A stretch of DNA of 23,550 bases from an uncultured virus (IMG/VR IMGVR_UViG_3300049893_002526) (IMGVR_UViG_3300049893_002526); one strand, 5' to 3'. Numbered from the stretch's first letter, positions 5,947 through 22,093 are shown. The notes: generated from the letters alone by a model not told the origin. Made by a program: numbers and translations.

Positions 5947-6177
5947 CTAAACCCACAACTCTGGCGGATCGTTATCCCGCTTCCTCGGCGCCTCCAATGG
6001 TAGCCAGGTGATGGTCTTGCCATCCGGACCTAAAGCCGAGATGTACAGCGTGTTGTTGTTCATCCAAAACTGTCCAAGGTCATGCGGCGTGGGACTCTCC
6101 GCGTGCTCTCTGACTCTCTGTGCAGTTTCATACTCAGCTATCAGGTCCTTGAAGATCTCCCCGGCGTCTGTCATCAT
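5947..6177 (-). CDS. Hypothetical protein (76 aa)
   Basis: ATGA overlap with the VWA gene stop codon. Confidence 0.7.
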   Translation of the reverse strand: MMTDAGEIFKDLIAEYETAQRVREHAESPTPHDLGQFWMNNNTLYISALGPDGKTITWLPLEAPRKRDNDPPELWV

Positions 6178-7721
6178 CGGATAGCTTTTTGAATAGCATC
6201 GACGACATTATTATCGTCCGAGGTATCTACGGTGTAGCTCTCGTCACTAAATGTCGCAACCACAGGGGGGAGATGCTTGGCTATGCAGAACGTCGTCCAC
6301 TGAGTTCCTGTAGATTCTTTGAACGCATTCAAGCGCTTGATGAACGCGTCGCTTACGGCTGATTCGCCGTCAGTGATCATCAGGACATCGCTGTTCTTAG
6401 TCAGCTCATCATTCTTCAGCGCGTGGTCGATCACGCTGTTGAAGCTCGTGCCTCCCCGCAGGAACCAGTCGCCCACAAAGTCAAGCAGTTTTGATGCGCT
6501 GGTTTTGTCCGGTTCGATCGTGACACTGTTCTGAATGAAGGTGTCAAACAGATTGATTTGAATCTTGCGGCGCTGCTTGAGGGCCTCTTCAGCGATGACG
6601 AAAGCAATCGCTTTAGACCAGATTTCGCTGTTGCCTGTCATTGACCCGGATACGTCGATGTACATCACGATCGGACCTTTGCCGAGATCTTTACGGTTGG
6701 CGGTGTAGTCTTTGGTAAGTAGTGTACGTTCAGAGTATTTGAGAGCAAATAATGCGCGGCCTTGCGGCGTAGCCGCTAGTGCAATCTCGCTCGGGAATGC
6801 CTGCGTTACGTTGTTGTCGAACTTAGCGCCGGTGATGTTCTCGTAGTTGCTCTTGGCTTTGCGGGCACGTTTGCGCTCAGCCCAGATCCGCCTGAGGGAT
6901 CCCAGCCGCGTGGCGATCTTCCGCAATGTCTGGTTACGGTTCAGTCGCTTGGCCAGAGCCTTCTTCTCTGCCAGTGTGCCTGACGATGCGCCCTGCCCTG
7001 CTGTATCTCCGAACATATTGTTCATCTGTTCCTGCAGCTCGTCGTTAGCTTTGTTCACGCTGTCGACGATCTTGCTGGCTTCAGCTCCTACCTGTTCTTT
7101 GGCATCCTGAATCGCATCATTGATCTTGTTAACAAGTTCCTTGGCCTGCTGTCGGATCTGTGCAGCTTTCTCGGTGTTTCCCTTGGCTGATTCCTTTTGG
7201 AATTGATCTCGTAGGTCCTGGAGCTCCTGTCCGCTCTTCGTCAGTAGCGCCACGTCGAACGTTTGCTCGGCGATAGCCTGCTCGATCGTTTCTGCGAGCT
7301 CGTTCAGCAGCATCACGGCGTTGTTACCTGATGCGAACTGATCGCCCACGCAGCGGTGGAGCAGCAGCGGCCAGCCTGCGGCGTTCGTCAGCTCATCCAT
7401 GATCGCGAACCAGATACCGTTCTCCGGCCTGTAGTTCTCGGGGAGTTTTGCTGGCAGCCCGTCGCATACCGAACGAAAGTAATCTTCAACGTCTTGTTCG
7501 CTGACAAGCCATTTGACTTGATCTTCGTTGTAGAGACGCTCGAAGATCTCTTTACCGAAGCGGCTGAGCTGAACAATTTCGTAGTTGTTGATCAGGTAGT
7601 TAACGCTGGGCTTTTGCTCGCGTACGAAGTCGTCCCACAGGAAATCAGCCAGTGCGCTGCAATAAAGGGTGAGTGGTTGGTTCTCAATGAGGCGAAGAAA
7701 TTCGCGGCGTGTCTGTGTCAC
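6174..7721 (-). CDS. VWA-domain protein, ViaA-like
   Basis: MIDAS motif KGPIVMYIDVSGSM...GGTSF...LMITDGE, central coiled coil, coupled to the AAA+ gene. Confidence 0.9.
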   Translation of the reverse strand: MTQTRREFLRLIENQPLTLYCSALADFLWDDFVREQKPSVNYLINNYEIVQLSRFGKEIFERLYNEDQVKWLVSEQDVEDYFRSVCDGLPAKLPENYRPENGIWFAIMDELTNAAGWPLLLHRCVGDQFASGNNAVMLLNELAETIEQAIAEQTFDVALLTKSGQELQDLRDQFQKESAKGNTEKAAQIRQQAKELVNKINDAIQDAKEQVGAEASKIVDSVNKANDELQEQMNNMFGDTAGQGASSGTLAEKKALAKRLNRNQTLRKIATRLGSLRRIWAERKRARKAKSNYENITGAKFDNNVTQAFPSEIALAATPQGRALFALKYSERTLLTKDYTANRKDLGKGPIVMYIDVSGSMTGNSEIWSKAIAFVIAEEALKQRRKIQINLFDTFIQNSVTIEPDKTSASKLLDFVGDWFLRGGTSFNSVIDHALKNDELTKNSDVLMITDGESAVSDAFIKRLNAFKESTGTQWTTFCIAKHLPPVVATFSDESYTVDTSDDNNVVDAIQKAIR

Positions 7722-8905
7722 TGTGCAATCTCCGAGATTTCGCGGGCGATAGAGTCTTGATTGTTCTGAAGCTGTTGAGTCAGTTTAACCCCACTCATGC
7801 GCTCGGATGCGCTCATCTTGATACGGTCGCTTGTTAGTAGCTCATCTACTTTGCTTTTGATTGTGTTGATGTCCTTGTGATACTTACGTAGCATCGCTAC
7901 ATACTCGTTTAATCCTTCCAAATTATTTGCACGGCTGCGGTGCACAGTGGATTGGAACTCAGCCATTACGCTGGCGCCTGCTCGTTTTGCATCGGCAAAC
8001 AGTTTTGCTGCCGTGGGAATCTCCTGCTCCAGCACCTCGCAAATAACCTGCTGATCGTCTGCGTTGGTGTAAACGATGTGCACGATGCTGTTGTGCATGT
8101 GTTCTGGGTGCAGAGTGTCGTCGCCCTGCACGACTGCCCAGGCGCGGAGGAATTTAAGGATCTGTACGCGACGACGGTCGCTGATCAAAACACCCCGCTG
8201 AGCCAACAGTTCCCACACACTGTTGAACTTATCTAAGAACTCGCCGGAGATTTTTACCTTCGCTGCTTCGTCTTGAAGAGCGCTCAGATCCTTCAGTGTG
8301 ATGTGCTCACCTACCTCCGGACGCTGCTCGATACCCAGAGCCCACTGATCCAGGATGCGCCTTGAGGTCGGTTTCTTGAGCGTGTGCACCGTCGGGCGGA
8401 ACAGGAAGCGGTCACTGAACGCCTGGAGTGATTCCTCTTCGGGCCAGCTGTTCGTGGCGGCGACGATGCTTTGCAGAGGAGTGATGATAGTTGTTTTGCC
8501 GTTGTTGAATGTCCGTTCGTTCAACAGGGTGAGCAGAGAGTTGAGGATGGCCGAGGAGCCACGGAACAGCTCATCGAGAAAGCCGACGTGTGCCGAAGGG
8601 AGATACCCGTCGACGTCGCGCTGATACTCATCCTGCAGCAGCTTAGTTACGGCTACAGGACCGAAAACTTCCGATGGATCGGTGGTCGGTGTCAGTAAAT
8701 AACCGAAGTAATTAACGCCGGTAATACCCTTACAGATGTTCCGAACAAGATCGGATTTACCTGTGCCAGGGGCACCCAACAGGAAGGCGTTTTGCTTAGC
8801 CAGGAGGCAGCTAAGCAGCCCGTCGATAACGTCAGTTCGTTCGAGCGTGGCAGCATTCAGAGCGCTACGAAAGTTTTGAAGCTTGGCAAAAAGAGTGTTG
8901 TTCAT
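7718..8905 (-). CDS. MoxR-family AAA+ ATPase, RavA-like
   Basis: Walker A GAPGTGKS, Walker B FLDELFRGSSAILNSLLTLLNER, AATN, FSDRF, ISDRR. Confidence 0.92.
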   Translation of the reverse strand: MNNTLFAKLQNFRSALNAATLERTDVIDGLLSCLLAKQNAFLLGAPGTGKSDLVRNICKGITGVNYFGYLLTPTTDPSEVFGPVAVTKLLQDEYQRDVDGYLPSAHVGFLDELFRGSSAILNSLLTLLNERTFNNGKTTIITPLQSIVAATNSWPEEESLQAFSDRFLFRPTVHTLKKPTSRRILDQWALGIEQRPEVGEHITLKDLSALQDEAAKVKISGEFLDKFNSVWELLAQRGVLISDRRRVQILKFLRAWAVVQGDDTLHPEHMHNSIVHIVYTNADDQQVICEVLEQEIPTAAKLFADAKRAGASVMAEFQSTVHRSRANNLEGLNEYVAMLRKYHKDINTIKSKVDELLTSDRIKMSASERMSGVKLTQQLQNNQDSIAREISEIAQ

Positions 8906-11277: not shown

Positions 11278-11634
11278 TTAGCTAGCCGTCTCGTAGAAAA
11301 TGCAGTCGCTTGCCTCCGGTGTGTTGTACTCCGGAAAGTCATAACTACAGCCGTTTCGAGTCTTGTGTACGCAGGCGTCGCATCCTACGTGCTGCTTGGT
11401 GTCTTTGAAGATCTTAAGCAAGTTCTGTACTTGAGACAGCATCTCTTTAGCTTGGTTGTAAAAGACATCGTCTATTTCGTAAGTTGTCGCCCTGTGGCGA
11501 CAGGCTCTGCACTCTTTTCTGCGTCTCGTATGACCTTCTTTCGTTCTCCTTGATTCAATCGTTATCTGTTGTTTCTCATTGCATCTGGGGCAGATTCCGA
11601 AGAACTTCGGATTTATAAAGGCTGGTTCGTTCAT
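11278..11634 (-). CDS. NrdR-like N-terminal zinc-ribbon protein without ATP-cone, with a second Cys cluster
   Basis: CPRC...IESRRTKEGHTRRRKECRACRHRATTYE matches the NrdR N-terminus. The C-terminus has CDACVH...C...C. Start moved to ATG 11634 because the longer ORF overlaps the tRNA. Confidence 0.75.
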   Translation of the reverse strand: MNEPAFINPKFFGICPRCNEKQQITIESRRTKEGHTRRRKECRACRHRATTYEIDDVFYNQAKEMLSQVQNLLKIFKDTKQHVGCDACVHKTRNGCSYDFPEYNTPEASDCIFYETAS

Positions 11635-11645
11635 TGTGTGTTTAA

Positions 11646-11718
11646 TAGGGGCCATGGGGATCGAACCCATCTTCGGCGTGTTATGAGCACGCTGCAGTCA
11701 CCAGATTGCTAGACCCCC
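11646..11718 (-). tRNA. tRNA with CAT anticodon (elongator Met or lysidine-modified Ile2), no encoded CCA
   Basis: Acceptor GGGGGTC/GGCCCCT with discriminator A; D arm GCA..TGC; anticodon arm GCGTG-CTCATAA-CACGC; T arm ATGGG-TTCGATC-CCCAT; 73 nt. Confidence 0.92.
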
Positions 11719-16636: not shown

Positions 16637-16948
16637 TCAGGAGCAATAGCGGCCGAGGATAACGTCGCCGTCGTCGCACAACTTGATAAGAACTCCACTG
16701 AAGTAAGAGTCAGCAGCTACACCGTGCCAATCGCACATTGGGCTATCAGGTGAAGCGTTGACTCGCATGAAGTCGGACAAAGCGTAAGTGAAACCTTTGT
16801 AAGTTACAAAGGACTCATCTTCAAACTCAGTGTCAGTTAGGTAGTCAAACTGCTTGCGGATCTTGGCAGCTTGCTTGTCACCTACAAAGAGTTCAAGTGT
16901 CAGCCCTGACATAGGCTGACGGGGCTGATTGTTGGTCGTGATGTTCAT
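16637..16948 (-). CDS. Hypothetical protein (103 aa), first gene of the small-gene array
   Basis: ORF track call; ATG 16948 preferred. Confidence 0.75.
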   Translation of the reverse strand: MNITTNNQPRQPMSGLTLELFVGDKQAAKIRKQFDYLTDTEFEDESFVTYKGFTYALSDFMRVNASPDSPMCDWHGVAADSYFSGVLIKLCDDGDVILGRYCS

Positions 16949-17031
16949 AACATTCACCAGCGATCGAGCTGGCAGCTAACAACAAAGAGGGAAGAATCCC
17001 TCACCGAACCGCGTGGCTCGGGGAGAGAATC
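16946..17031 (-). ncRNA. Structured leader RNA motif, copy B
   Basis: Same conserved linkers as 15901-16008 with different but still paired stems. Confidence 0.75.
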
Positions 17032-17790
17032 TAGTCTGTGATCAAGAATGATCCTATCGGATCAAACTTAATACTTAACCTGGACAAAGCTAGTAGTTAA
17101 CAGGCTCCGCCCTAATACAGTTAGGAACTGTTGCTCCAAACTAAAATAGGCGCATTGTGTTAGTTACAGAGTACAGATTGCCACCTATTGCACGGATTGA
17201 ACCGCCATCGCCGGGATACGACCGGGTGAGGTTCGCTCACAACTCTGTCCAGCGTACCTGCATCAAAGACAGTTACGCTGGACAAAGCCTGCAGGCGGAC
17301 AAGTTGTACTCTGTAACTAGCACTTGCCACGGTGACGAGTACCGTTGCGTCGCTAGTTGTAGGGCACGACCCTACTGATCAGTTCTAGTTACGTTGCTGT
17401 TGTAGTTGTACTAGGGCTTCATAACTCGCTAGTGGGGGATCTCCTACCCTTACTCCCACGCTGTGACCTTAAAGGTCTGGCACTTAGTTCGAACCGTAGC
17501 CGGAGTCTGGTTAACTAAGCTGTGTCTTCCTAGCGTTCCCTTGCGGTACTAGCTGACAACTACAACAGCAACCTTAGTTGTCACTAACTGCGCACCTAGT
17601 TAAAGGTGCCAGCTGACAACGTACAGGCTGACAAGTTCGGCATCGTGCACACTTAACCGGTCGGGTTGCAACCGTAGTGTGCTCGGGGGATCGCTCGCGC
17701 CCCTAGTTCCATCTTGTGACGATGCCTGCTATGAAGAACAGTTAGCTATGCCTTAGGCTTTCCGTGCAAACTATCTCAGCACAGCTAACT

Positions 17791-17809
17791 TATTCAGTTG
17801 TCGAGGTTC
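17791..17809 (-). promoter_or_regulatory. boxA-like antitermination element (GAACCTCGACAACTGAATA)
   Basis: Close to the cyanobacterial rrn boxA region GAACCTTGA(A/C)AACTG. Confidence 0.6.
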
Positions 17810-17945
17810 TTTCACCTAGTTACCTACTACAACTCCCGCCGCTCACGTTCCGGCACACCATGCCTGCCCTTGCCTACACTTCGGGGATGTTCTCCCTACC
17901 ATCAGCGGCAGACGCGCGGGGCCAGTTCGGCCGTCGCGGGAATCG

Positions 17946-17963
17946 ATTCGGTTGTCTAGGTGC
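17946..17963 (-). promoter_or_regulatory. boxA-like element (GCACCTAGACAACCGAAT) preceded by a GNRA-capped boxB-like hairpin
   Basis: Second copy of ACCTnGACAACnGAAT. Upstream CTGG...GGC-GAGA-GCC...CCAG hairpin at about 17966-17997. Confidence 0.55.
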
Positions 17964-18003
17964 CCTGGCGGCGTGGCTCTCGCCCCGTTCCTCCAGTGAC
18001 CTA

Positions 18004-18033
18004 AAGGTAAGGGCCAGCGGTGCACTAGGTCAA
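18004..18033 (-). promoter_or_regulatory. Sigma70-like promoter at the head of the structured RNA
   Basis: TTGACC-18 bp-TACCTT, directly upstream of the boxB/boxA-like leader. Confidence 0.55.
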
Positions 18034-18444
18034 CCCCTTCCAGCCGGTTGTCACATTGGCACACAGAGCCCAGTCACCTAGCTAGCTAATGGAAGGCGCG
18101 CAGGCGCACGCGCTAGCACCACGCGCACCCATTGGTCAAGCGGGTTCACACTCTGAATTGTGTTTAGTTAAAGGGGGCACCCTCCCCCGCTCAGTGAAAA
18201 GAATAGAACAAGAGTTTGAGTTTGTAATACATAGCGATCGTTGATTGATTCGTTATACAAACTCAGCTCACCCGTACGCGCGCGCCTGCACGCAATGTGC
18301 CCCTTTTTTTTAAATGTACGCGTTTGACGTCGCCGCCGGCGAGAACCCTTTGTGAATCTTGCTGGAAAAACGGGGTCAAAAGGTTTGGTGTCAGCATACG
18401 GACAGGCCCTGGACAAAAAAAATTCGCCCGCGTGGGGCGATGAC

Positions 18445-18636
18445 TCAAACTTTTTCGGACTCTACAAGGAGATCTTTCAGGAATTTAACGTAACTTCGTA
18501 ATAATTCAGCGGCAATTAGGTGTTTATGATCCTTTGTTTGGAAATAAAATGCGTTGTGTCGATCAACAGCGTCTAATGCTGTTTTGATTACCCCGTTCCA
18601 CGGCTCACGAGTAGGGGTATTCCACTCCCGTGCCAC
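18445..18636 (-). CDS. Conserved small phage protein (MAREWNTP.RE.WN type, recalled from cyanophages)
   Basis: ORF track call; recognisable N-terminal pattern. Confidence 0.75.
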   Translation of the reverse strand: MAREWNTPTREPWNGVIKTALDAVDRHNAFYFQTKDHKHLIAAELLRSYVKFLKDLLVESEKV

Positions 18637-18682
18637 GGAGGGGAGGTCAGAGTACTTATATATGCTAAGACCGGCAGGTTAA

Positions 18683-19027
18683 CTACAGTTTTTCAAGGCG
18701 GAAATAAATTTTCTCAGGAAAGCGGTCGAAAAACGCCAGTGTTGCAGGGCATAGCCACCCTTCCTGTTTATTCCACTCGTACCAAGCACCGTTAAACTCG
18801 TCATCAATTCTCGTCAGCGCCCCGTGGCATTGTGGGAACTCCTGCTCGGCGAACAAGATTCGATAGTTTTTGTCTTCTTCGTACAGATTGTTTTCTTTTA
18901 ATACTGTGTCTATTATTTCCGGGATACCAAGGACAAAAGGCTCGTGTACCAGCTCACGTTGGAGATCCGTAAAGCACCAAGTCCCGTAGAATCTATAAAT
19001 TTCGATGCAGAGCATTGCGTTTGCCAT
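18683..19027 (-). CDS. DUF6717-like protein
   Basis: GTWCFTD...EPFVLGIPEIID...GAWY...EGWLCPA...FF...PEKIY pattern. Confidence 0.75.
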   Translation of the reverse strand: MANAMLCIEIYRFYGTWCFTDLQRELVHEPFVLGIPEIIDTVLKENNLYEEDKNYRILFAEQEFPQCHGALTRIDDEFNGAWYEWNKQEGWLCPATLAFFDRFPEKIYFRLEKL

Positions 19028-19099
19028 GTGAATTTGATGTGATGCAGTGCTATGGTAGCACGCCTGCTGACCTGTAGCAGTCGAATATTTATAGAATTT

Positions 19100-19109
19100 T
19101 GGTATGATG
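19100..19109 (+). promoter_or_regulatory. Possible extended -10 promoter (TGgTATGAT) for the plus-strand block
   Basis: TGnTATGAT about 25 nt upstream of GTG 19133, in a divergent AT-rich gap. Confidence 0.45.
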
Positions 19110-19132
19110 GTTAGAGATTAGCGCTTGGCGCC

Positions 19133-22093
19133 GTGACTTCTTCGGGTTTTGAACGGCTGCCTGACCGTACAACAATCGAGCGCTTACCCGAACTGGCTCG
19201 TAAGCTGCGTACAACGTACAACGTTGATCAAGGTATTCTTAGAGATTTTTTATTTCAAAGCGCGTTAAATGAAGGCGAGCTTGATTACGAACTTTCGCAG
19301 ATATACCCTGACTTAGATGCAGACGAAGCGGCTCAAATGGCTTCTTCTGCCGACTTTCCTAACTACTTACCTTTTGAAGGCTTCGATATTGATCCGGACA
19401 ACGAGACGCTAAACGCTTATCGTCTTGCTGCGGAGAATCCTAAAGCTAGGGAATTCGTTGAACAGAACAACGATTTAGGTAGTTTGCTCCCCGGCGGCAG
19501 CGTGGAGACTGCCCGTAACGCGTATTTGCAAGCTGTTAACTCAGGCGCACTGACTCCTGCGGAGCGCGAGATTCTCCGCTATGCAGGCGAATCTAGATTT
19601 TTATCCGACGCAAACTACAACGCAGACTCTGGCGAAGCTTTAAATAATTTACTACAAAGCTATACTGATAGGTTTGATACAGACTACTCTGCTAATTTAG
19701 AAAATGTCGCTGATATTTTAGAACAAGTAGATGAAGTCATACGCCCTGTCGAAGCTGATTTAGGGTCTAGAAACGTATCTTTAAGGTACGCTGAGAGCGA
19801 TACTACACGTCGTGATCCGTACGCAACTCGGATCGACAACCAAACTGTCCAGCCTGGGTTGCCTTTTGGCGGAGATAATCAAGACATTCGTCAACGTCTT
19901 GAAGTCTTAAGCAGCACAACTCCGCAGACGCTGGAGGAGCTTCGCGCTCAGGTTAATGAGATTCGAGGGCTGCGGCAGGAAGCTGCCACGCAACGTACAG
20001 CAGAAACCTTCCCGATCGAAGGCTCTGTCTTGCTGCCTCAAGTACGAGAGGCCATAGTTGCCAATCCAAATACCAGCCCATCTCGTGCTGGGTATCTTTT
20101 AGGCAGAGCTGAAAACGAAGCAAGAAACCCCAATCGAAACTCTCTGTATCAACTGCAGCGTGATCTGAGTCAACAGGAACCTCAAGGACTTGGAGCGGCA
20201 GAGACGCTGCGGACAGTCAATATGAGTCCCGCAGAACTAAACCCGTGGTTTGACCCAGTTGCAGCCGGGGAGTATGTCCAGAATCCGTTGGTTGGACTTT
20301 CGCTTCAGCTTGCGGATACCAGAGATGCGGCGATCCAGGAAGCTGTAGCTAAACAAGCTGAGGAACTGAACAAGTTTGTTGAAAAGTATCCGGAGGTTGG
20401 TCCGTACCTCCAGGGTGCACTGCAAAACCCGACTCCGAAGATCGAACGAAACATCGAAAAACTCGCTCCCTACCTTGATTTAGAGCAGGAGATTTCTAAA
20501 CCTGAAGCACGTCAGAGTATTTACAATCGTGCGATGAAGGAGCTGGGCGTACAGCCTTCTTATCTGTCGCAGATTGAACTGGACTACACCAGCGGCGAGA
20601 CAAGCAAGCAGAAAGAAGCTGTTGATCGTCTGATTCAGATGGGTTACGGTCCCGAGTTGCAGGCTGGTTCAGCATCTGCAGTTTCCCGCCGTATGCCTGT
20701 TGTCGGCGGCGGTGGTTATGCAACGGGGCAGGAATTACGCGATGCCCTTTCTTCTATTCGTGAGCGTGCGGCTGAATTTGAAAAACTAGCCAAGATACCT
20801 GCGACTACTTCGCTAGGTCCTAGCTCCGGTCCCTTGGGAATTCGGAATCCGAACCTGAACAAAGTCCCCTCGCTTGCTTCGTTCTCTTACGACCCGGATA
20901 CAAATACAGCTCGCCCTGATCCTGCCGGTGACTACAGCATTCGAGTCAATACGAACACCGATCCGGTACGTATTCGGTTAGGTGAAGATTTAGGTGGAGC
21001 TTCCGAGGTGTCTAGGAACGTCCTTAAGTTTTTACAGGACAACCCTGTGACTCAGAGGTCGAGCGTTTCTTTTGAAACGAGCACTCCGACTTCCGGGTTC
21101 GACTACAGCGCTAAGGATATTCCGGCGCCTGTGTTCGAACAAATGAATAAGTTTATTACAGAGAACGTCCTGCGTAACATGCGCCCAGGGATGATCCTAG
21201 AGAACTCTCCACTGGGTTCGGCTGATCTGGCTCGGTTACGGGAAGATCAAGGCAAGTCTCTGAGTGAGAGTTCTATCCTGCGCCGCCAAGAGGAATTCCA
21301 AGGGCAACAACCCAATCGCCGTGGCGCAGCATATCGTTCTGTCGGGTTTGGTCCTCTGACTGCTGAGGGGAACCAAATGCTGTATATGAACAGCGAGGGC
21401 AACATTGTTCCTCTTCAAGCCACCCGTCCTGCAGCTTCGTTGGCGGGAGGGGTCGTTATCCAAGATCGCCCTCTGCGTGCCGAAGTACTACAGTCCCGTG
21501 AACCCTTAACGGCGAAAGCGTATTACTCTGTAGATCCTGTGTCTGCTGCCGCGCAGGGTGCGGGTGAATACGTTCGGGCTCTGCGGCGCACGCCTGCTGC
21601 ACTGTTGCCTGGTGCTGCAGATTTGATTCCTAGCCCTGAGGCTATTCAAACCGGGTACCGCGAAGGGCTCGGACCTATGGCTCAGCAGATGGGTCGGGAG
21701 TTTGTACAGAGTTTGCCCACGGCAGCAGCAGCTTCCTCTGTCCTGGCGTTACCTGCAGTAGCTCCTTTGGCACCTGGCATTGGTGCTGGTATGGTCGGCA
21801 CTGCCGGAGCTCGGGCATTGAACGAGGTGGTGCGCCAGGAAACCGGAGAGGGCATCGTGCCTAAGTTGCGCCAGGCTCTTGGCACCGCTCCTCGAACCGG
21901 CGTGGCTAGTCCCGCACGTACAGGTCCACAGCCGTTAACTGCGCAGATTCGCCCTCTTACGCAAGCACAACGAACCGAACAGCAACGTCAGCAAAATCGC
22001 TCTGAGGTTGAGCGTCGTCTGGATTTAGCTCGGGAACGGTTCAACCCACGCCGAGGTGAGTTTGGTTTGTCTGAGCTGTTATTTGGACGCTAG
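19133..22093 (+). CDS. Large hypothetical protein (986 aa), possibly virion-associated
   Basis: Long ORF; acidic N-terminus, Ala/Pro/Gly-rich hydrophobic C-terminal region; no family recognised with confidence. Confidence 0.85.
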   Translation: MTSSGFERLPDRTTIERLPELARKLRTTYNVDQGILRDFLFQSALNEGELDYELSQIYPDLDADEAAQMASSADFPNYLPFEGFDIDPDNETLNAYRLAAENPKAREFVEQNNDLGSLLPGGSVETARNAYLQAVNSGALTPAEREILRYAGESRFLSDANYNADSGEALNNLLQSYTDRFDTDYSANLENVADILEQVDEVIRPVEADLGSRNVSLRYAESDTTRRDPYATRIDNQTVQPGLPFGGDNQDIRQRLEVLSSTTPQTLEELRAQVNEIRGLRQEAATQRTAETFPIEGSVLLPQVREAIVANPNTSPSRAGYLLGRAENEARNPNRNSLYQLQRDLSQQEPQGLGAAETLRTVNMSPAELNPWFDPVAAGEYVQNPLVGLSLQLADTRDAAIQEAVAKQAEELNKFVEKYPEVGPYLQGALQNPTPKIERNIEKLAPYLDLEQEISKPEARQSIYNRAMKELGVQPSYLSQIELDYTSGETSKQKEAVDRLIQMGYGPELQAGSASAVSRRMPVVGGGGYATGQELRDALSSIRERAAEFEKLAKIPATTSLGPSSGPLGIRNPNLNKVPSLASFSYDPDTNTARPDPAGDYSIRVNTNTDPVRIRLGEDLGGASEVSRNVLKFLQDNPVTQRSSVSFETSTPTSGFDYSAKDIPAPVFEQMNKFITENVLRNMRPGMILENSPLGSADLARLREDQGKSLSESSILRRQEEFQGQQPNRRGAAYRSVGFGPLTAEGNQMLYMNSEGNIVPLQATRPAASLAGGVVIQDRPLRAEVLQSREPLTAKAYYSVDPVSAAAQGAGEYVRALRRTPAALLPGAADLIPSPEAIQTGYREGLGPMAQQMGREFVQSLPTAAAASSVLALPAVAPLAPGIGAGMVGTAGARALNEVVRQETGEGIVPKLRQALGTAPRTGVASPARTGPQPLTAQIRPLTQAQRTEQQRQQNRSEVERRLDLARERFNPRRGEFGLSELLFGR

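What the first reader, a model, noticed from the sequence alone, without database searches (positions are those of the whole stretch)
17040..17998. Candidate ~950-nt ornate non-coding RNA heading the early transcription unit
Seen: about 1 kb without a credible CDS in an otherwise gene-dense phage, built from consecutive closed domains. (1) A perfect 15-bp helix 17161-17175/17305-17319 encloses a perfect 11-bp helix 17246-17256/17274-17284 and hairpins GTGAG/CTCAC and CCGG/CCGG. (2) A perfect 17-bp helix 17393-17409/17556-17572 encloses GTGGG/CCCAC, GACCT/AGGTC and CTTAGTT/AACTAAG. (3) A 7-bp helix 17577-17583/17614-17620 surrounds GCACCT/AGGTGC. (4) An 8-bp helix 17639-17646/17719-17726 surrounds GCACAC/GTGTGC. 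(5) A 12-bp helix 17740-17751/17779-17790. (6) A 9-bp helix 17831-17839/17936-17944. Helices 5 and 6 need G-U pairs that form only on the minus strand, matching the promoter at 18004-18033. Known: phages carry large structured RNAs of unclear function (GOLLD, ROOL) and RNA antiterminators (HK022 put). Inference: one of the first transcripts made, acting as a scaffold, a decoy for host proteins or defence systems, or a processive antiterminator. I cannot assign it to a known class by eye.
Basis: partly seen in the sequence, partly recalled or inferred. Interest (0 to 1): 0.88.

Follow-up and report, generated by a model that had tools for sequence, protein, structure and literature searches.

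The report
Cyanophage early leader with rRNA boxA mimic
The gene-free kilobase is a real, transcribed chain of folded RNA modules at the head of a cyanophage's early genes, and its conserved core copies the host's ribosomal-RNA anti-termination signal, so the phage probably borrows the machinery that lets RNA polymerase ignore stop signals.

Summary
All six helices exist as described. The stretch folds far better than shuffles (z -7.2 minus strand, -5.7 plus) and is non-coding. It matches no Rfam family.

It is not one fixed 950-nt RNA. Only the first ~210 nt (block A, 17795-18003) is universal: 23 of 64 pairs covary. The downstream domains come and go as modules. Element B (17637-17728) is a three-way junction shared with T7-like Synechococcus podoviruses (11 of 17 pairs covary).

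Block A ends in GAACCTCGACAACTGAATAA. That is 17 of 20 identical to the antitermination box A of picocyanobacterial rRNA operons (published primer site); 11 of 25 relatives carry the exact 12-mer. The leader ends in an invariant intrinsic terminator about 30 nt before the first early gene.

Best reading (about 0.55): this is a host-RNAP early leader that uses an rRNA-type box A to load Nus factors and read through its own terminators. The modules' roles are unknown. Two metatranscriptomes hold contigs of it, which is only a weak sign of transcription.

Verdict: a new variant of a known kind, containing two new RNA families.

The parts
18004..18033 (-). Sigma-70-type early promoter PA: -35 TTGACC 18033-18028, 18-nt spacer, -10 TACCTT 18009-18004. 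Predicted start near 17997.
   Evidence: TTGAC is present in 25 of 25 distinct relatives. The spacer sequence varies freely. The hexamer reads NANNNT directly before the RNA model start in 23 of 25 rows; the other 2 have CATGCT a few nt away. A homologous promoter, TTGACN-N16-18-TAnnnT, occurs in 30 of 39 distinct T7-like leaders. The consensus scan did not list it.
17795..18003 (-). Block A, the universal ~209-nt structured RNA: a 5' hairpin capped by a tetraloop, then a long irregular arm closed by CACCUAG/CUAGGUG.
   Evidence: Model R1 matches all 25 distinct sequences with E <= 1.9e-31; 9 of them built the model; 64 pairs, 93.6% of cells paired, 23 pairs changed on both sides, 0 of 500 shuffles reach this, slid controls give 4-11 pairs. 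The hairpin loop swaps between GAGA, GCAA, GCGA, GAAA and CACG. Six pairs are predominantly G-U and are valid only on this strand.
17880..17905 (-). Invariant apex of block A (CTGATGGTAGGGAG-N4-TCCCCGAA).
   Evidence: Invariant in all relatives, including the divergent L102 group. It was used as the search pattern.
17950..17962 (-). Box A-like copy 1 (CACCTAGACAACC). It is the counterpart of the box A of the T7-like leaders, and its 5' half pairs in the closing helix of the long arm.
   Evidence: helix 4 columns 73-79/224-230, 2 pairs compensatory; T7-like CCAGCACCT[T/A]GACAA.
17790..17809 (-). Box A mimic, copy 2: GAACCTCGACAACTGAATAA.
   Evidence: 17 of 20 identical to the reverse complement of primer Picocya-boxA-R, which targets the antitermination box A of picocyanobacterial ITS (passage of PMC9769826). 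Box A is given as GAACCTTGAAAA and D4 as CTGCATA in cyanobacterial ITS (passage of PMC8461337). The exact 12-mer GAACCTTGACAA is in 11 of 25 relatives; GAACCTTGAAAA is in 1.
17740..17790 (-). Hairpin 5, an optional module.
   Evidence: I10. U-A to C-G compensation in L104. Replaced by a different long hairpin in L103 and L105.
17637..17728 (-). Element B, a three-way-junction RNA. P1 is 17639-17646/17719-17726, P2 is a short hairpin, and P3 (GCACAC/GUGUGC) carries the invariant loop GGUUGCAACCCGACC.
   Evidence: About 80% identical to non-coding DNA of Synechococcus phages S-CBP1 and DSL-LC07. The extended motif is in 69 loci; 54 distinct sequences, 17 pairs, 91.2% paired, 11 pairs changed on both sides, covariation score 0.429 against 0.133 in shuffles (0 of 500 reach it).
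17577..17620 (-). Block C hairpin: GCACCU/AGGUGC inside the 7-bp helix.
   Evidence: The inner hairpin and the 5' arm are conserved. The 3' arm (17577-17583) lies inside the domain-2 indel and is missing where domain 2 is missing.
17393..17572 (-). Domain 2, an optional module closed by the 17-bp helix. The indel in relatives spans about 17387-17592.
   Evidence: present in the window, L104 and L105, and cleanly absent in L099, L103, L106 and L058. Also found in L109 and L124; 5 sequences, 55 predicted pairs, 5 compensatory, plus a G-U valid only on this strand. An RNA-library contig of run X18 skips 17386-17586.
17157..17323 (-). Domain 1, a multi-branch module closed by the 15-bp helix. Its inner hairpin, 17246-17292, is also found in T7-like phages.
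   Evidence: 9 sequences, 61 predicted pairs, 13 compensatory. The inner hairpin is matched in 23 T7-like loci.
17049..17064 (-). Hairpin T1 (terminator-like), followed by UUCUUGAUCA.
   Evidence: C-G to A-U compensation. An RNA-library contig carrying adapter sequence ends at about 17028-17033.
16976..17030 (-). End of the leader: the invariant GAUUCUCUCCCC, a small hairpin, then intrinsic terminator T2 (stem 17002-16987 plus UUUGUUGUU). An alternative pairing, UCUCUCCCC with GGUGAGGGA, would disrupt T2.
   Evidence: the T2 stem is invariant in 10 of 10 sequences. L106 carries a C-to-U change matched by a G-to-A change in the alternative pairing. The switch itself is inferred.
16637..16957 (-). 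First early gene (106 aa, unknown function). It starts about 30 nt after T2.
   Evidence: Not homologous to the first gene of DSL-LC07.

Best explanation
The interval is the untranslated, roughly 1-kb leader of the phage's early operon, transcribed on the minus strand by host RNA polymerase from promoter PA (18033-18004).

The nascent RNA first folds into block A. Block A presents a mimic of the host's rRNA-operon box A (17809-17790), with a second, half-paired copy at 17962-17950.

Inferred step: box A recruits the host NusB-S10 pair, and with it the rRNA-type antitermination complex. This makes the polymerase resistant to the strong hairpins and intrinsic terminators (T1, T2) that lie between the promoter and the first early gene.

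The remaining domains (hairpin 5, element B, domains 1 and 2) are independently folding, exchangeable RNA cassettes. Their own roles are unknown; protein-binding sites are the likeliest.

The promoter-hairpin-box A-element B cassette is shared with unrelated T7-like cyanopodoviruses, so it moves between phages that infect the same kind of host.

Shown here: the structure, the strand, promoter conservation, the box A match, the position of the terminators, and modularity. Inferred: Nus-factor binding, antitermination, and that a single transcript spans everything.
For: RNA structure. Block A has 23 of 64 pairs compensatory, with 0 of 500 shuffles as high. Element B has 11 of 17, domain 1 has 13 of 61, domain 2 has 5 of 55 and the leader end has 10 of 55. 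Hairpin loops swap between stable tetraloop types. G-U pairs are valid only on the minus strand.

Promoter. TTGAC is present in 25 of 25 relatives, with a variable spacer and an NANNNT hexamer. A homologous TTGACN-N16-18-TAnnnT occurs in 30 of 39 T7-like leaders.

Box A. The window is 17 of 20 identical to the published picocyanobacterial box A primer site, and 11 of 25 relatives carry the exact 12-mer. The exact 20-mer is found in 9 further viral contigs with no rRNA or tRNA gene within 700 nt. Box A is not a -35 box: 0 of 25 and 0 of 46 sequences have TAnnnT 16-18 nt after it. It is not repeated through the genomes.

Terminators. T1 and T2 lie on the minus strand. T2 is invariant, about 30 nt before the start codon.

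Polymerase. No T7-type RNA polymerase domain was found in a 97%-complete relative.

RNA libraries. In run X17, the contigs 97-99% identical to the window (records 3-5) cover 17033-17790. The flanking genes are covered only by contigs about 88% identical.

Established knowledge. Box elements in nascent pre-rRNA nucleate the antitermination complex, and NusB:NusE binds single-stranded BoxA (abstracts of PMC10250234 and PMC2800207, seen in the listing).
Against: No binding or antitermination was tested.

Position 7 of the box A 12-mer varies (T, C, A or G), and 13 of 25 relatives differ from the host form at 1-2 positions.

Copy 1 is half base-paired.

The host box A sequence comes from two papers, not from a host genome examined here.

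The RNA-library evidence is contigs only. It gives no strand, ends or levels, DNA carry-over is possible, and higher conservation of the leader could inflate its coverage.

The consensus scan listed no promoter.

Internal promoters cannot be excluded.

The control for rang in no genome, so absence of a phage RNA polymerase is not shown.

The model does not explain why about 800 nt of further structured modules are carried.
Confidence: 0.55

Rival explanations
1. A free-standing non-coding RNA, or several. Transcription from PA ends at T1 or T2, giving an abundant ~1-kb RNA or processed pieces. These act in trans as a sponge for NusB-S10 or other host proteins, shutting down host rRNA synthesis, or as decoys for host defences.
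For: T2 is a strong, invariant intrinsic terminator. A molecule end lies near 17028-17033 in an RNA library. Coverage by contigs 97-99% identical to the window is confined to the leader. Block A has invariant loops suited to protein binding.
Against: No room for a promoter is seen between T2 and the first gene (about 30 nt), so at least some read-through is needed for early expression. The modules are dispensable in relatives. Contigs cannot show ends or levels reliably.
Confidence: 0.2
2. A regulated attenuator or riboswitch-like leader. One of the conserved domains (element B or block A) senses a metabolite or protein and chooses between the alternative pairing and terminator T2. This would gate early gene expression independently of Nus factors.
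For: Mutually exclusive pairings sit at 17030-16976, with one compensatory change. Element B is a three-way junction with invariant junction and loops. In T7-like phages it lies 60-75 nt before the first start codon.
Against: Element B is about 700 nt from T2 in the window and is absent in relatives that keep T2. No known riboswitch class matches. No ligand is suggested by the gene context.
Confidence: 0.12
3. A DNA-level element, such as a replication origin, a packaging site or a cluster of protein-binding sites. On this reading the inverted repeats act as DNA hairpins or operators.
For: Inverted repeats fold on both strands (plus-strand z -5.65). The invariant loop of element B contains a perfect 10-bp palindrome. 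In the S-CBP1 record, element B lies about 120-200 nt from the record end. GATC sites cluster at 17040-17065.
Against: G-U pairs are valid on one strand only. Hairpin loops swap between RNA tetraloop types. A conserved promoter sits directly upstream. The region is present in RNA libraries. Helix sequences drift freely while pairing is kept, which protein-binding DNA repeats would not do.
Confidence: 0.05

Closest known systems
rRNA-operon antitermination signal (boxB hairpin - boxA - downstream box) of the cyanobacterial host, in the rrn leader and the 16S-23S spacer
   Same: The 12-20 nt box A sequence itself. The order is hairpin first, then box A. It sits in nascent RNA shortly after a strong sigma-70-type promoter.
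   Different: It lies in a phage, ahead of protein-coding early genes. The preceding structure is a 190-nt covarying domain rather than a small boxB hairpin. Two box A-like copies are present. Function is untested.
Lambda nut sites (boxA + boxB, N protein and Nus factors)
   Same: A phage early leader that carries a copy of the host's box A to make polymerase termination-resistant. NusB:NusE-BoxA dependence is stated in the abstract of PMC2800207 (listing).
   Different: The order of elements differs: here the structured RNA precedes box A, and element B follows it in the T7-like phages. No N-like protein was identified or searched for. The host is a cyanobacterium.
HK022 put RNA
   Same: A cis-acting structured RNA at the start of phage early transcripts that would confer read-through.
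   Different: As recalled, put acts without Nus factors and has no box A. No sequence or model of put was available to compare, so membership was not tested.
Large ornate RNAs of phages and bacteria (GOLLD, ROOL, OLE and the like, as held in Rfam)
   Same: Size, many closed domains and variable inserted domains.
   Different: No Rfam family matches at gathering score over the window, and none matches credibly at E <= 10 over 16900-19200. The architecture is not conserved as a whole; only about 210 nt are.
Mobile promoter-plus-stem-loop cassettes of T4-type phages (recalled from the literature, not checked by any search)
   Same: An early promoter with adjoining RNA hairpins is shared as a cassette between otherwise unrelated phage genomes.
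   Different: Different phages, sequences and content (box A, three-way junction). A role in recombination is not shown.

Membership tests
rRNA-type / nut-type box A antitermination signal | Sequence matches the host's rrn box A | tested here: met
   Window 17809-17790 is 17 of 20 identical to the published picocyanobacterial box A primer site. Of 25 relatives, 11 carry the exact 12-mer GAACCTTGACAA and 1 carries GAACCTTGAAAA. The host sequence was taken from papers, not from a genome examined here.
rRNA-type / nut-type box A antitermination signal | Lies in the nascent transcript, downstream of a promoter and upstream of terminators | tested here: met
   The conserved promoter is about 190 nt upstream. 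T1 and T2 lie downstream on the same strand. That transcription runs through is inferred.
rRNA-type / nut-type box A antitermination signal | Box A is single-stranded in the RNA | tested here: inconclusive
   For copy 2, only the 4-bp helix 1 touches it, and that helix has 0 compensatory pairs and may lie upstream of the start. Copy 1 has its 5' half in a covarying helix.
rRNA-type / nut-type box A antitermination signal | Binds NusB-S10 and confers terminator read-through | not testable with these tools
   Needs binding and reporter assays.
Lambda nut site | A boxB hairpin bound by a phage N-type protein | not tested
   No N-like protein was searched for. Element B follows box A by 8-15 nt in T7-like phages, but it is optional in the window's family.
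Known Rfam families (GOLLD, ROOL, OLE, 6S, riboswitches, ribozymes, group I/II introns, tmRNA, RNase P) | Match to the family covariance model at its gathering score | tested here: not met
   There were 0 matches over the window. At E <= 10 there were only four sub-threshold hits: MIR6146 30.5 bits against 59, HOTAIR_2, StyR-143 and group-II-D1D4-6 13.1 against 49. ARAGORN finds only tRNA-Met at 11646-11718.
Protein-coding gene | Open frame conserved in relatives | tested here: not met
   Frames break in relatives. There are 1-2-nt indels and no Pfam hits.

The most novel reading that the evidence does not exclude
At least two unrelated cyanophage lineages share a mobile early-expression cassette that imitates the start of the host's pre-rRNA: a strong promoter, a hairpin, then box A. 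One lineage is a ~78-kb freshwater family; the other is the T7-like podoviruses. The cassette would capture the rRNA antitermination complex for phage early genes and at the same time starve host rRNA synthesis of it. On this reading, block A and element B are new protein-binding RNAs. They would act as loading platforms for that complex or for a phage-encoded antiterminator, and the optional modules would be exchangeable decoys for host factors or defences.
Probability: 0.3. Interest if true: 0.8.

Novelty: new variant of a known kind. Interest (0 to 1): 0.66.

Why it matters
Box A-based hijacking of host antitermination is textbook for lambdoid coliphages. In the searchable library, no listed paper's title or abstract describes it for cyanophages (listings only). 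Cyanophages shape picocyanobacterial populations in lakes, estuaries and oceans.

The locus gives two well-supported new structured-RNA families. Block A has 25 distinct sequences and element B has 54. There is also a concrete, testable link between them and the host transcription machinery.

The locus shows that a long 'ornate' phage RNA can be a string of exchangeable cassettes rather than one molecule with one fold. That changes how such regions should be searched for and modelled.

Tried and rejected
Known RNA families: none fit.

Coding: rejected.

Box A as a -35 box: rejected, with 0 of 25 and 0 of 46 sequences having a -10-like hexamer at the right spacing.

Box A as a phage-polymerase promoter repeated through the genome: rejected. 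There are 2-5 copies of CCTNGACAA per genome, similar to the reversed-pattern control. The three extra copies in G002 and one in G003 that I fetched lack the GAAC prefix, and three of the four lie in open frames. PF00940 was not found, but its control rang nowhere.

Host copy of the RNAs. Element B pattern: 0 hits in genome contigs. Block A core: 1 hit (L147, in a MAG), which matches only 21 nt of model R1 at 13.5 bits, so it is not block A. Block A is absent from 5 T7-like loci and from 8 other box A-bearing loci.

Hairpin 5 as the terminator of a short sRNA: its apparent U-tract is largely paired into the stem, so this was not adopted.

Similarity of the block A apex to a hammerhead-like core or to a -10 box: looked at by eye and not pursued, with no model hit.

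First genes behind element B in the two lineages: not homologous.

Catalogue of 10,006 viral candidate RNAs (PMC10690425): four motif strings were not found in the 6 supplementary files that could be searched. Three files could not be searched, so prior listing as an unnamed candidate is not excluded.

RNA libraries: X19 and X20 are probably DNA. All runs were contigs, so parts without cover, depth differences and the adapter-flanked end near 17030 are hints only.

A whole genome for the window and earlier scan notes were not available. A search of cyanobacterial genomes for box A could not be set up for lack of a genome handle.

Full report
**Context.** The window is part of a poorly characterised phage. 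Its family-A DNA polymerase is at most about 28% identical to any phage record. It carries cyanophage-type domains (Kyano_Gp96, DUF7222) and a tRNA-Met. Genes run on the minus strand from 16957 down to 1, and on the plus strand from 19133. Between 16958 and 18682 there is no credible gene. A relative's contig of 78,105 nt is rated 97% complete, so the genome is about 78 kb. Near-identical DNA occurs in freshwater and freshwater-sediment metagenomes of several studies.

- All six helices are present at the stated coordinates.
- The 959 nt fold with z -7.17 on the minus strand and -5.65 on the plus strand. None of 20 shuffles folded as well on either strand.
- The ORFs inside have no Pfam hit (3 tested) and are not kept open in relatives.
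- Relatives have 1- and 2-nt indels in the best conserved part.
- No Rfam family reaches its gathering score anywhere in the window. At E <= 10 only four sub-threshold hits appear.

**Relatives and modularity.**
- The neighbouring 986-aa protein retrieved 9 related loci.
- A pattern from the invariant RNA core retrieved 12 viral and 28 metagenome loci. After removing identical copies, and dropping 2 truncated loci (L135, L140), 25 distinct sequences remain including the window.
- Whole domains are present or absent with clean edges. The domain closed by the 17-bp helix is in the window, L104 and L105, and later also in L109 and L124. It is missing in L099, L103, L106 and L058.
- Element B is replaced by other sequence in L103 and L105. 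L105 has large inserts.
- Eight divergent relatives share none of the window's downstream modules at blastn-short sensitivity. That screen is conservative: it missed domain 1 in L104 and L106, which the ordinary alignment finds at about 72% identity.
- The only part common to all 25 is the first ~209 nt, block A (17795-18003), and the motif that ends it.

**Structure is selected, and it is RNA of the minus strand.**
- Block A: a covariance model built from 9 sequences aligns all 25. On that alignment, 93.6% of cells pair and 23 of 64 pairs change on both sides. No measure is reached by any of 500 shuffles, and sliding the partners by 1-3 columns leaves 4-11 such pairs. The alignment is fitted to the model, which favours it.
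- Element B: on a plain MAFFT alignment of 54 distinct sequences, with a structure I drew from one sequence, 11 of 17 pairs change on both sides and 91.2% of cells pair. The covariation score is 0.429 against 0.133 (0 of 500). The count of pairs with a change on both sides is reached by 3 of 500 shuffles. The count of further pair types is not above shuffles (475 of 500).
- Other domains: domain 1 has 13 of 61 predicted pairs compensatory (9 sequences). Domain 2 has 5 of 55 (5 sequences). The leader end has 10 of 55 (10 sequences).
- Strand: six pairs of block A are predominantly G-U, so they would be A-C on the other strand.
- RNA rather than DNA: the 5' hairpin loop switches among GAGA, GCAA, GCGA, GAAA and CACG. 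That behaviour is typical of RNA tetraloops, not of DNA sites.

**Promoter.**
- Directly upstream of block A, all 25 sequences have TTGAC, then a spacer that varies freely, then a hexamer NANNNT (TACCTT, GATCTT, CATATT and others). The hexamer is in register in 23 of 25 rows and displaced by a few nt in 2.
- A terminator-like hairpin with a U8 run at 18440-18415 closes the upstream minus-strand gene.
- No T7-type RNA polymerase domain was found in three relatives' contigs, but the control rang nowhere, so this is weak.

**Link to T7-like cyanopodoviruses.**
- Window 17659-17736 is about 80% identical to non-coding DNA of Synechococcus phages S-CBP1 and DSL-LC07. There it lies between the last genes of the genome and the first early gene, on the strand of the genes.
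- The extended motif is in 69 loci of those fetched.
- In DSL-LC07, element B ends 61 nt before the annotated start codon of the first early gene.
- Upstream, these phages have TTGACN-N16-18-TAnnnT (30 of 39 distinct sequences; the other 9 have a variant -35). This is followed by AGGT(T)CATCGG, a hairpin, and CCAGCACCT[T/A]GACAA.
- The same order, partly in the same letters, opens block A of the window. The long arm of block A therefore looks like an insertion into a simpler shared cassette.
- The inner hairpin of domain 1 also recurs in 23 T7-like loci.
- The first genes behind the cassette are unrelated in the two lineages. The cassette goes with the position 'start of early transcription', not with a particular gene.

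**Box A.**
- Block A ends with GAACCTCGACAACTGAATAA (17809-17790).
- A passage of PMC8461337 gives the conserved box A of cyanobacterial 16S-23S spacers as GAACCTTGAAAA, followed by D4, CTGCATA.
[quoted passage not shown] It gives a primer whose reverse complement is GAACCTTGACAACTGCATAG.
- The window matches 17 of 20 positions and L099 matches 18 of 20. Of the 25 relatives, 11 have the exact 12-mer GAACCTTGACAA, one has GAACCTTGAAAA, and the other 13 differ at 1-2 positions, mostly position 7.
- The exact 20-mer occurs in 9 further viral contigs with no rRNA or tRNA gene within 700 nt. In most of them it follows a hairpin and precedes a structured leader and a start codon.
- The motif is not a -35 box and is not repeated through the genomes.
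- I first recalled that this motif is a cyanobacterial box A from memory; the two passages confirm it.

**End of the leader.**
- On the minus strand, hairpin T1 (17064-17049) comes first.
- It is followed by an invariant GAUUCUCUCCCC, a small hairpin, and a canonical intrinsic terminator T2. T2 has its stem at 17002-16987 followed by UUUGUUGUU, and is invariant in 10 of 10 sequences.
- After about 30 nt comes the first early gene.
- UCUCUCCCC can pair with GGUGAGGGA, which would break T2. L106 changes both partners of one such pair. That the two folds act as a switch is inference.

**Expression.**
- Two RNA libraries from different studies hold contigs of this region.
- In X17 the contigs 97-99% identical to the window (records 3-5) cover 17033-17790. 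The flanking genes are covered only by contigs about 88% identical.
- One contig ends at about 17028-17033 against adapter sequence.
- In X18 a 1,260-nt contig spans 16902-18339 without domain 2.
- Contigs give no strand, ends or levels, and DNA carry-over is possible. This is a hint of transcription, not proof.

**Reading.**
- The best-supported account is a host-polymerase early leader whose universal core presents an rRNA-type box A. This would render the polymerase termination-resistant, so that it crosses a kilobase of strong hairpins and two terminators into the early genes.
- It rests on established knowledge that box elements in nascent pre-rRNA nucleate the antitermination complex, and that NusB:NusE binds single-stranded BoxA in both rrn and lambda nut (abstracts of PMC10250234 and PMC2800207 in the listing).
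- Rivals are a trans-acting sponge or decoy RNA ended at T2, a ligand- or protein-controlled attenuator, and a DNA-level element. The last is disfavoured by strand-specific pairs, tetraloop swaps and the promoter.

**Novelty.**
- The principle, a phage leader copying the host's box A, is known from lambdoid phages.
- New here are its occurrence in cyanophages, in rRNA-operon order and across two unrelated lineages; two new covarying RNA families; and the cassette-like make-up of a kilobase leader.
- Searches of the paper library for cyanophage with antitermination (20 papers) and with boxA (5 papers) listed no title or abstract that describes it (listings only).
- A catalogue of viral candidate RNAs could be searched only in part.

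Noticed in passing
window 18040-18420: A further 380 nt of conserved non-coding sequence (about 80-88% identical among relatives) lies upstream of the promoter. It contains an A+T-rich inverted repeat at 18217-18265, GC-rich inverted repeats at 18096-18112/18277-18293, and a plus-strand terminator-like hairpin with a T run at 18288-18310, although no plus-strand gene precedes it. Function is unknown.
   Followed up: partly
L150, L151, L153, L154, L156 (viral contigs); also L148, L149, L152, L155: Other viral contigs carry the exact 20-nt host box A. In L150, L151, L153, L154 and L156 it follows a long hairpin (GATCTCGACTCTCCC...GGGAGGAGAGTCTCGATC) and precedes a leader. That leader ends, like those of the S-CBP1 group, in a hairpin followed by CTCATGG; its loop is GAGCCACA in L150, L151, L154 and L156 but differs in L153. 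L149 also has a pemK RNA (RF02913) match 175 nt after box A.
   Followed up: partly
L001-L097, T7-like loci, about 20 nt before the first start codon: A conserved small hairpin with the invariant loop GAGCCACA and covarying stems (GCGCA/UGCGC, GUGCA/UGCAC, ACACA/UGUGU) sits just upstream of the first early gene.
   Followed up: no
window 6174-8905 (-): Adjacent genes encode a MoxR-type AAA+ ATPase (bpMoxR, E 2e-56) and a 515-aa protein with a C-terminal von Willebrand A domain. This pairing is seen in many phages; its role here is unknown.
   Followed up: no
window 11278-11718 (-): A tRNA-Met gene (11646-11718) overlaps the 5' end of the listed ORF for a 130-aa protein (11278-11670) that has an NrdR-type zinc ribbon.
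   Followed up: no
window 17040-17065, 16962-16970, 17690-17697, 18226-18234: GATC sites occur here, with CGATCG-containing strings at 16962-16970 and 18226-18234. They recall methylation sites and the iterated palindrome of cyanobacterial genomes (recalled), and they cluster in the leader. Three GATC lie within 27 nt at hairpin T1.
   Followed up: no
L147 (genome contigs, MAG labelled Pseudomonadota): This was the only prokaryote-genome hit to the block A core pattern. It matches just 21 nt of the model (13.5 bits), so it is not a copy of block A.
   Followed up: yes
window 17798-17806, 17952-17960 (minus); 17079-17087, 17277-17285, 18408-18416 (plus): The 9-mer CCTNGACAA and its near copy GCTGGACAA occur in both orientations in the gap: 4 of the window's 5 exact copies are here. 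The plus-strand copies cannot be box A in the leader RNA and are unexplained.
   Followed up: partly
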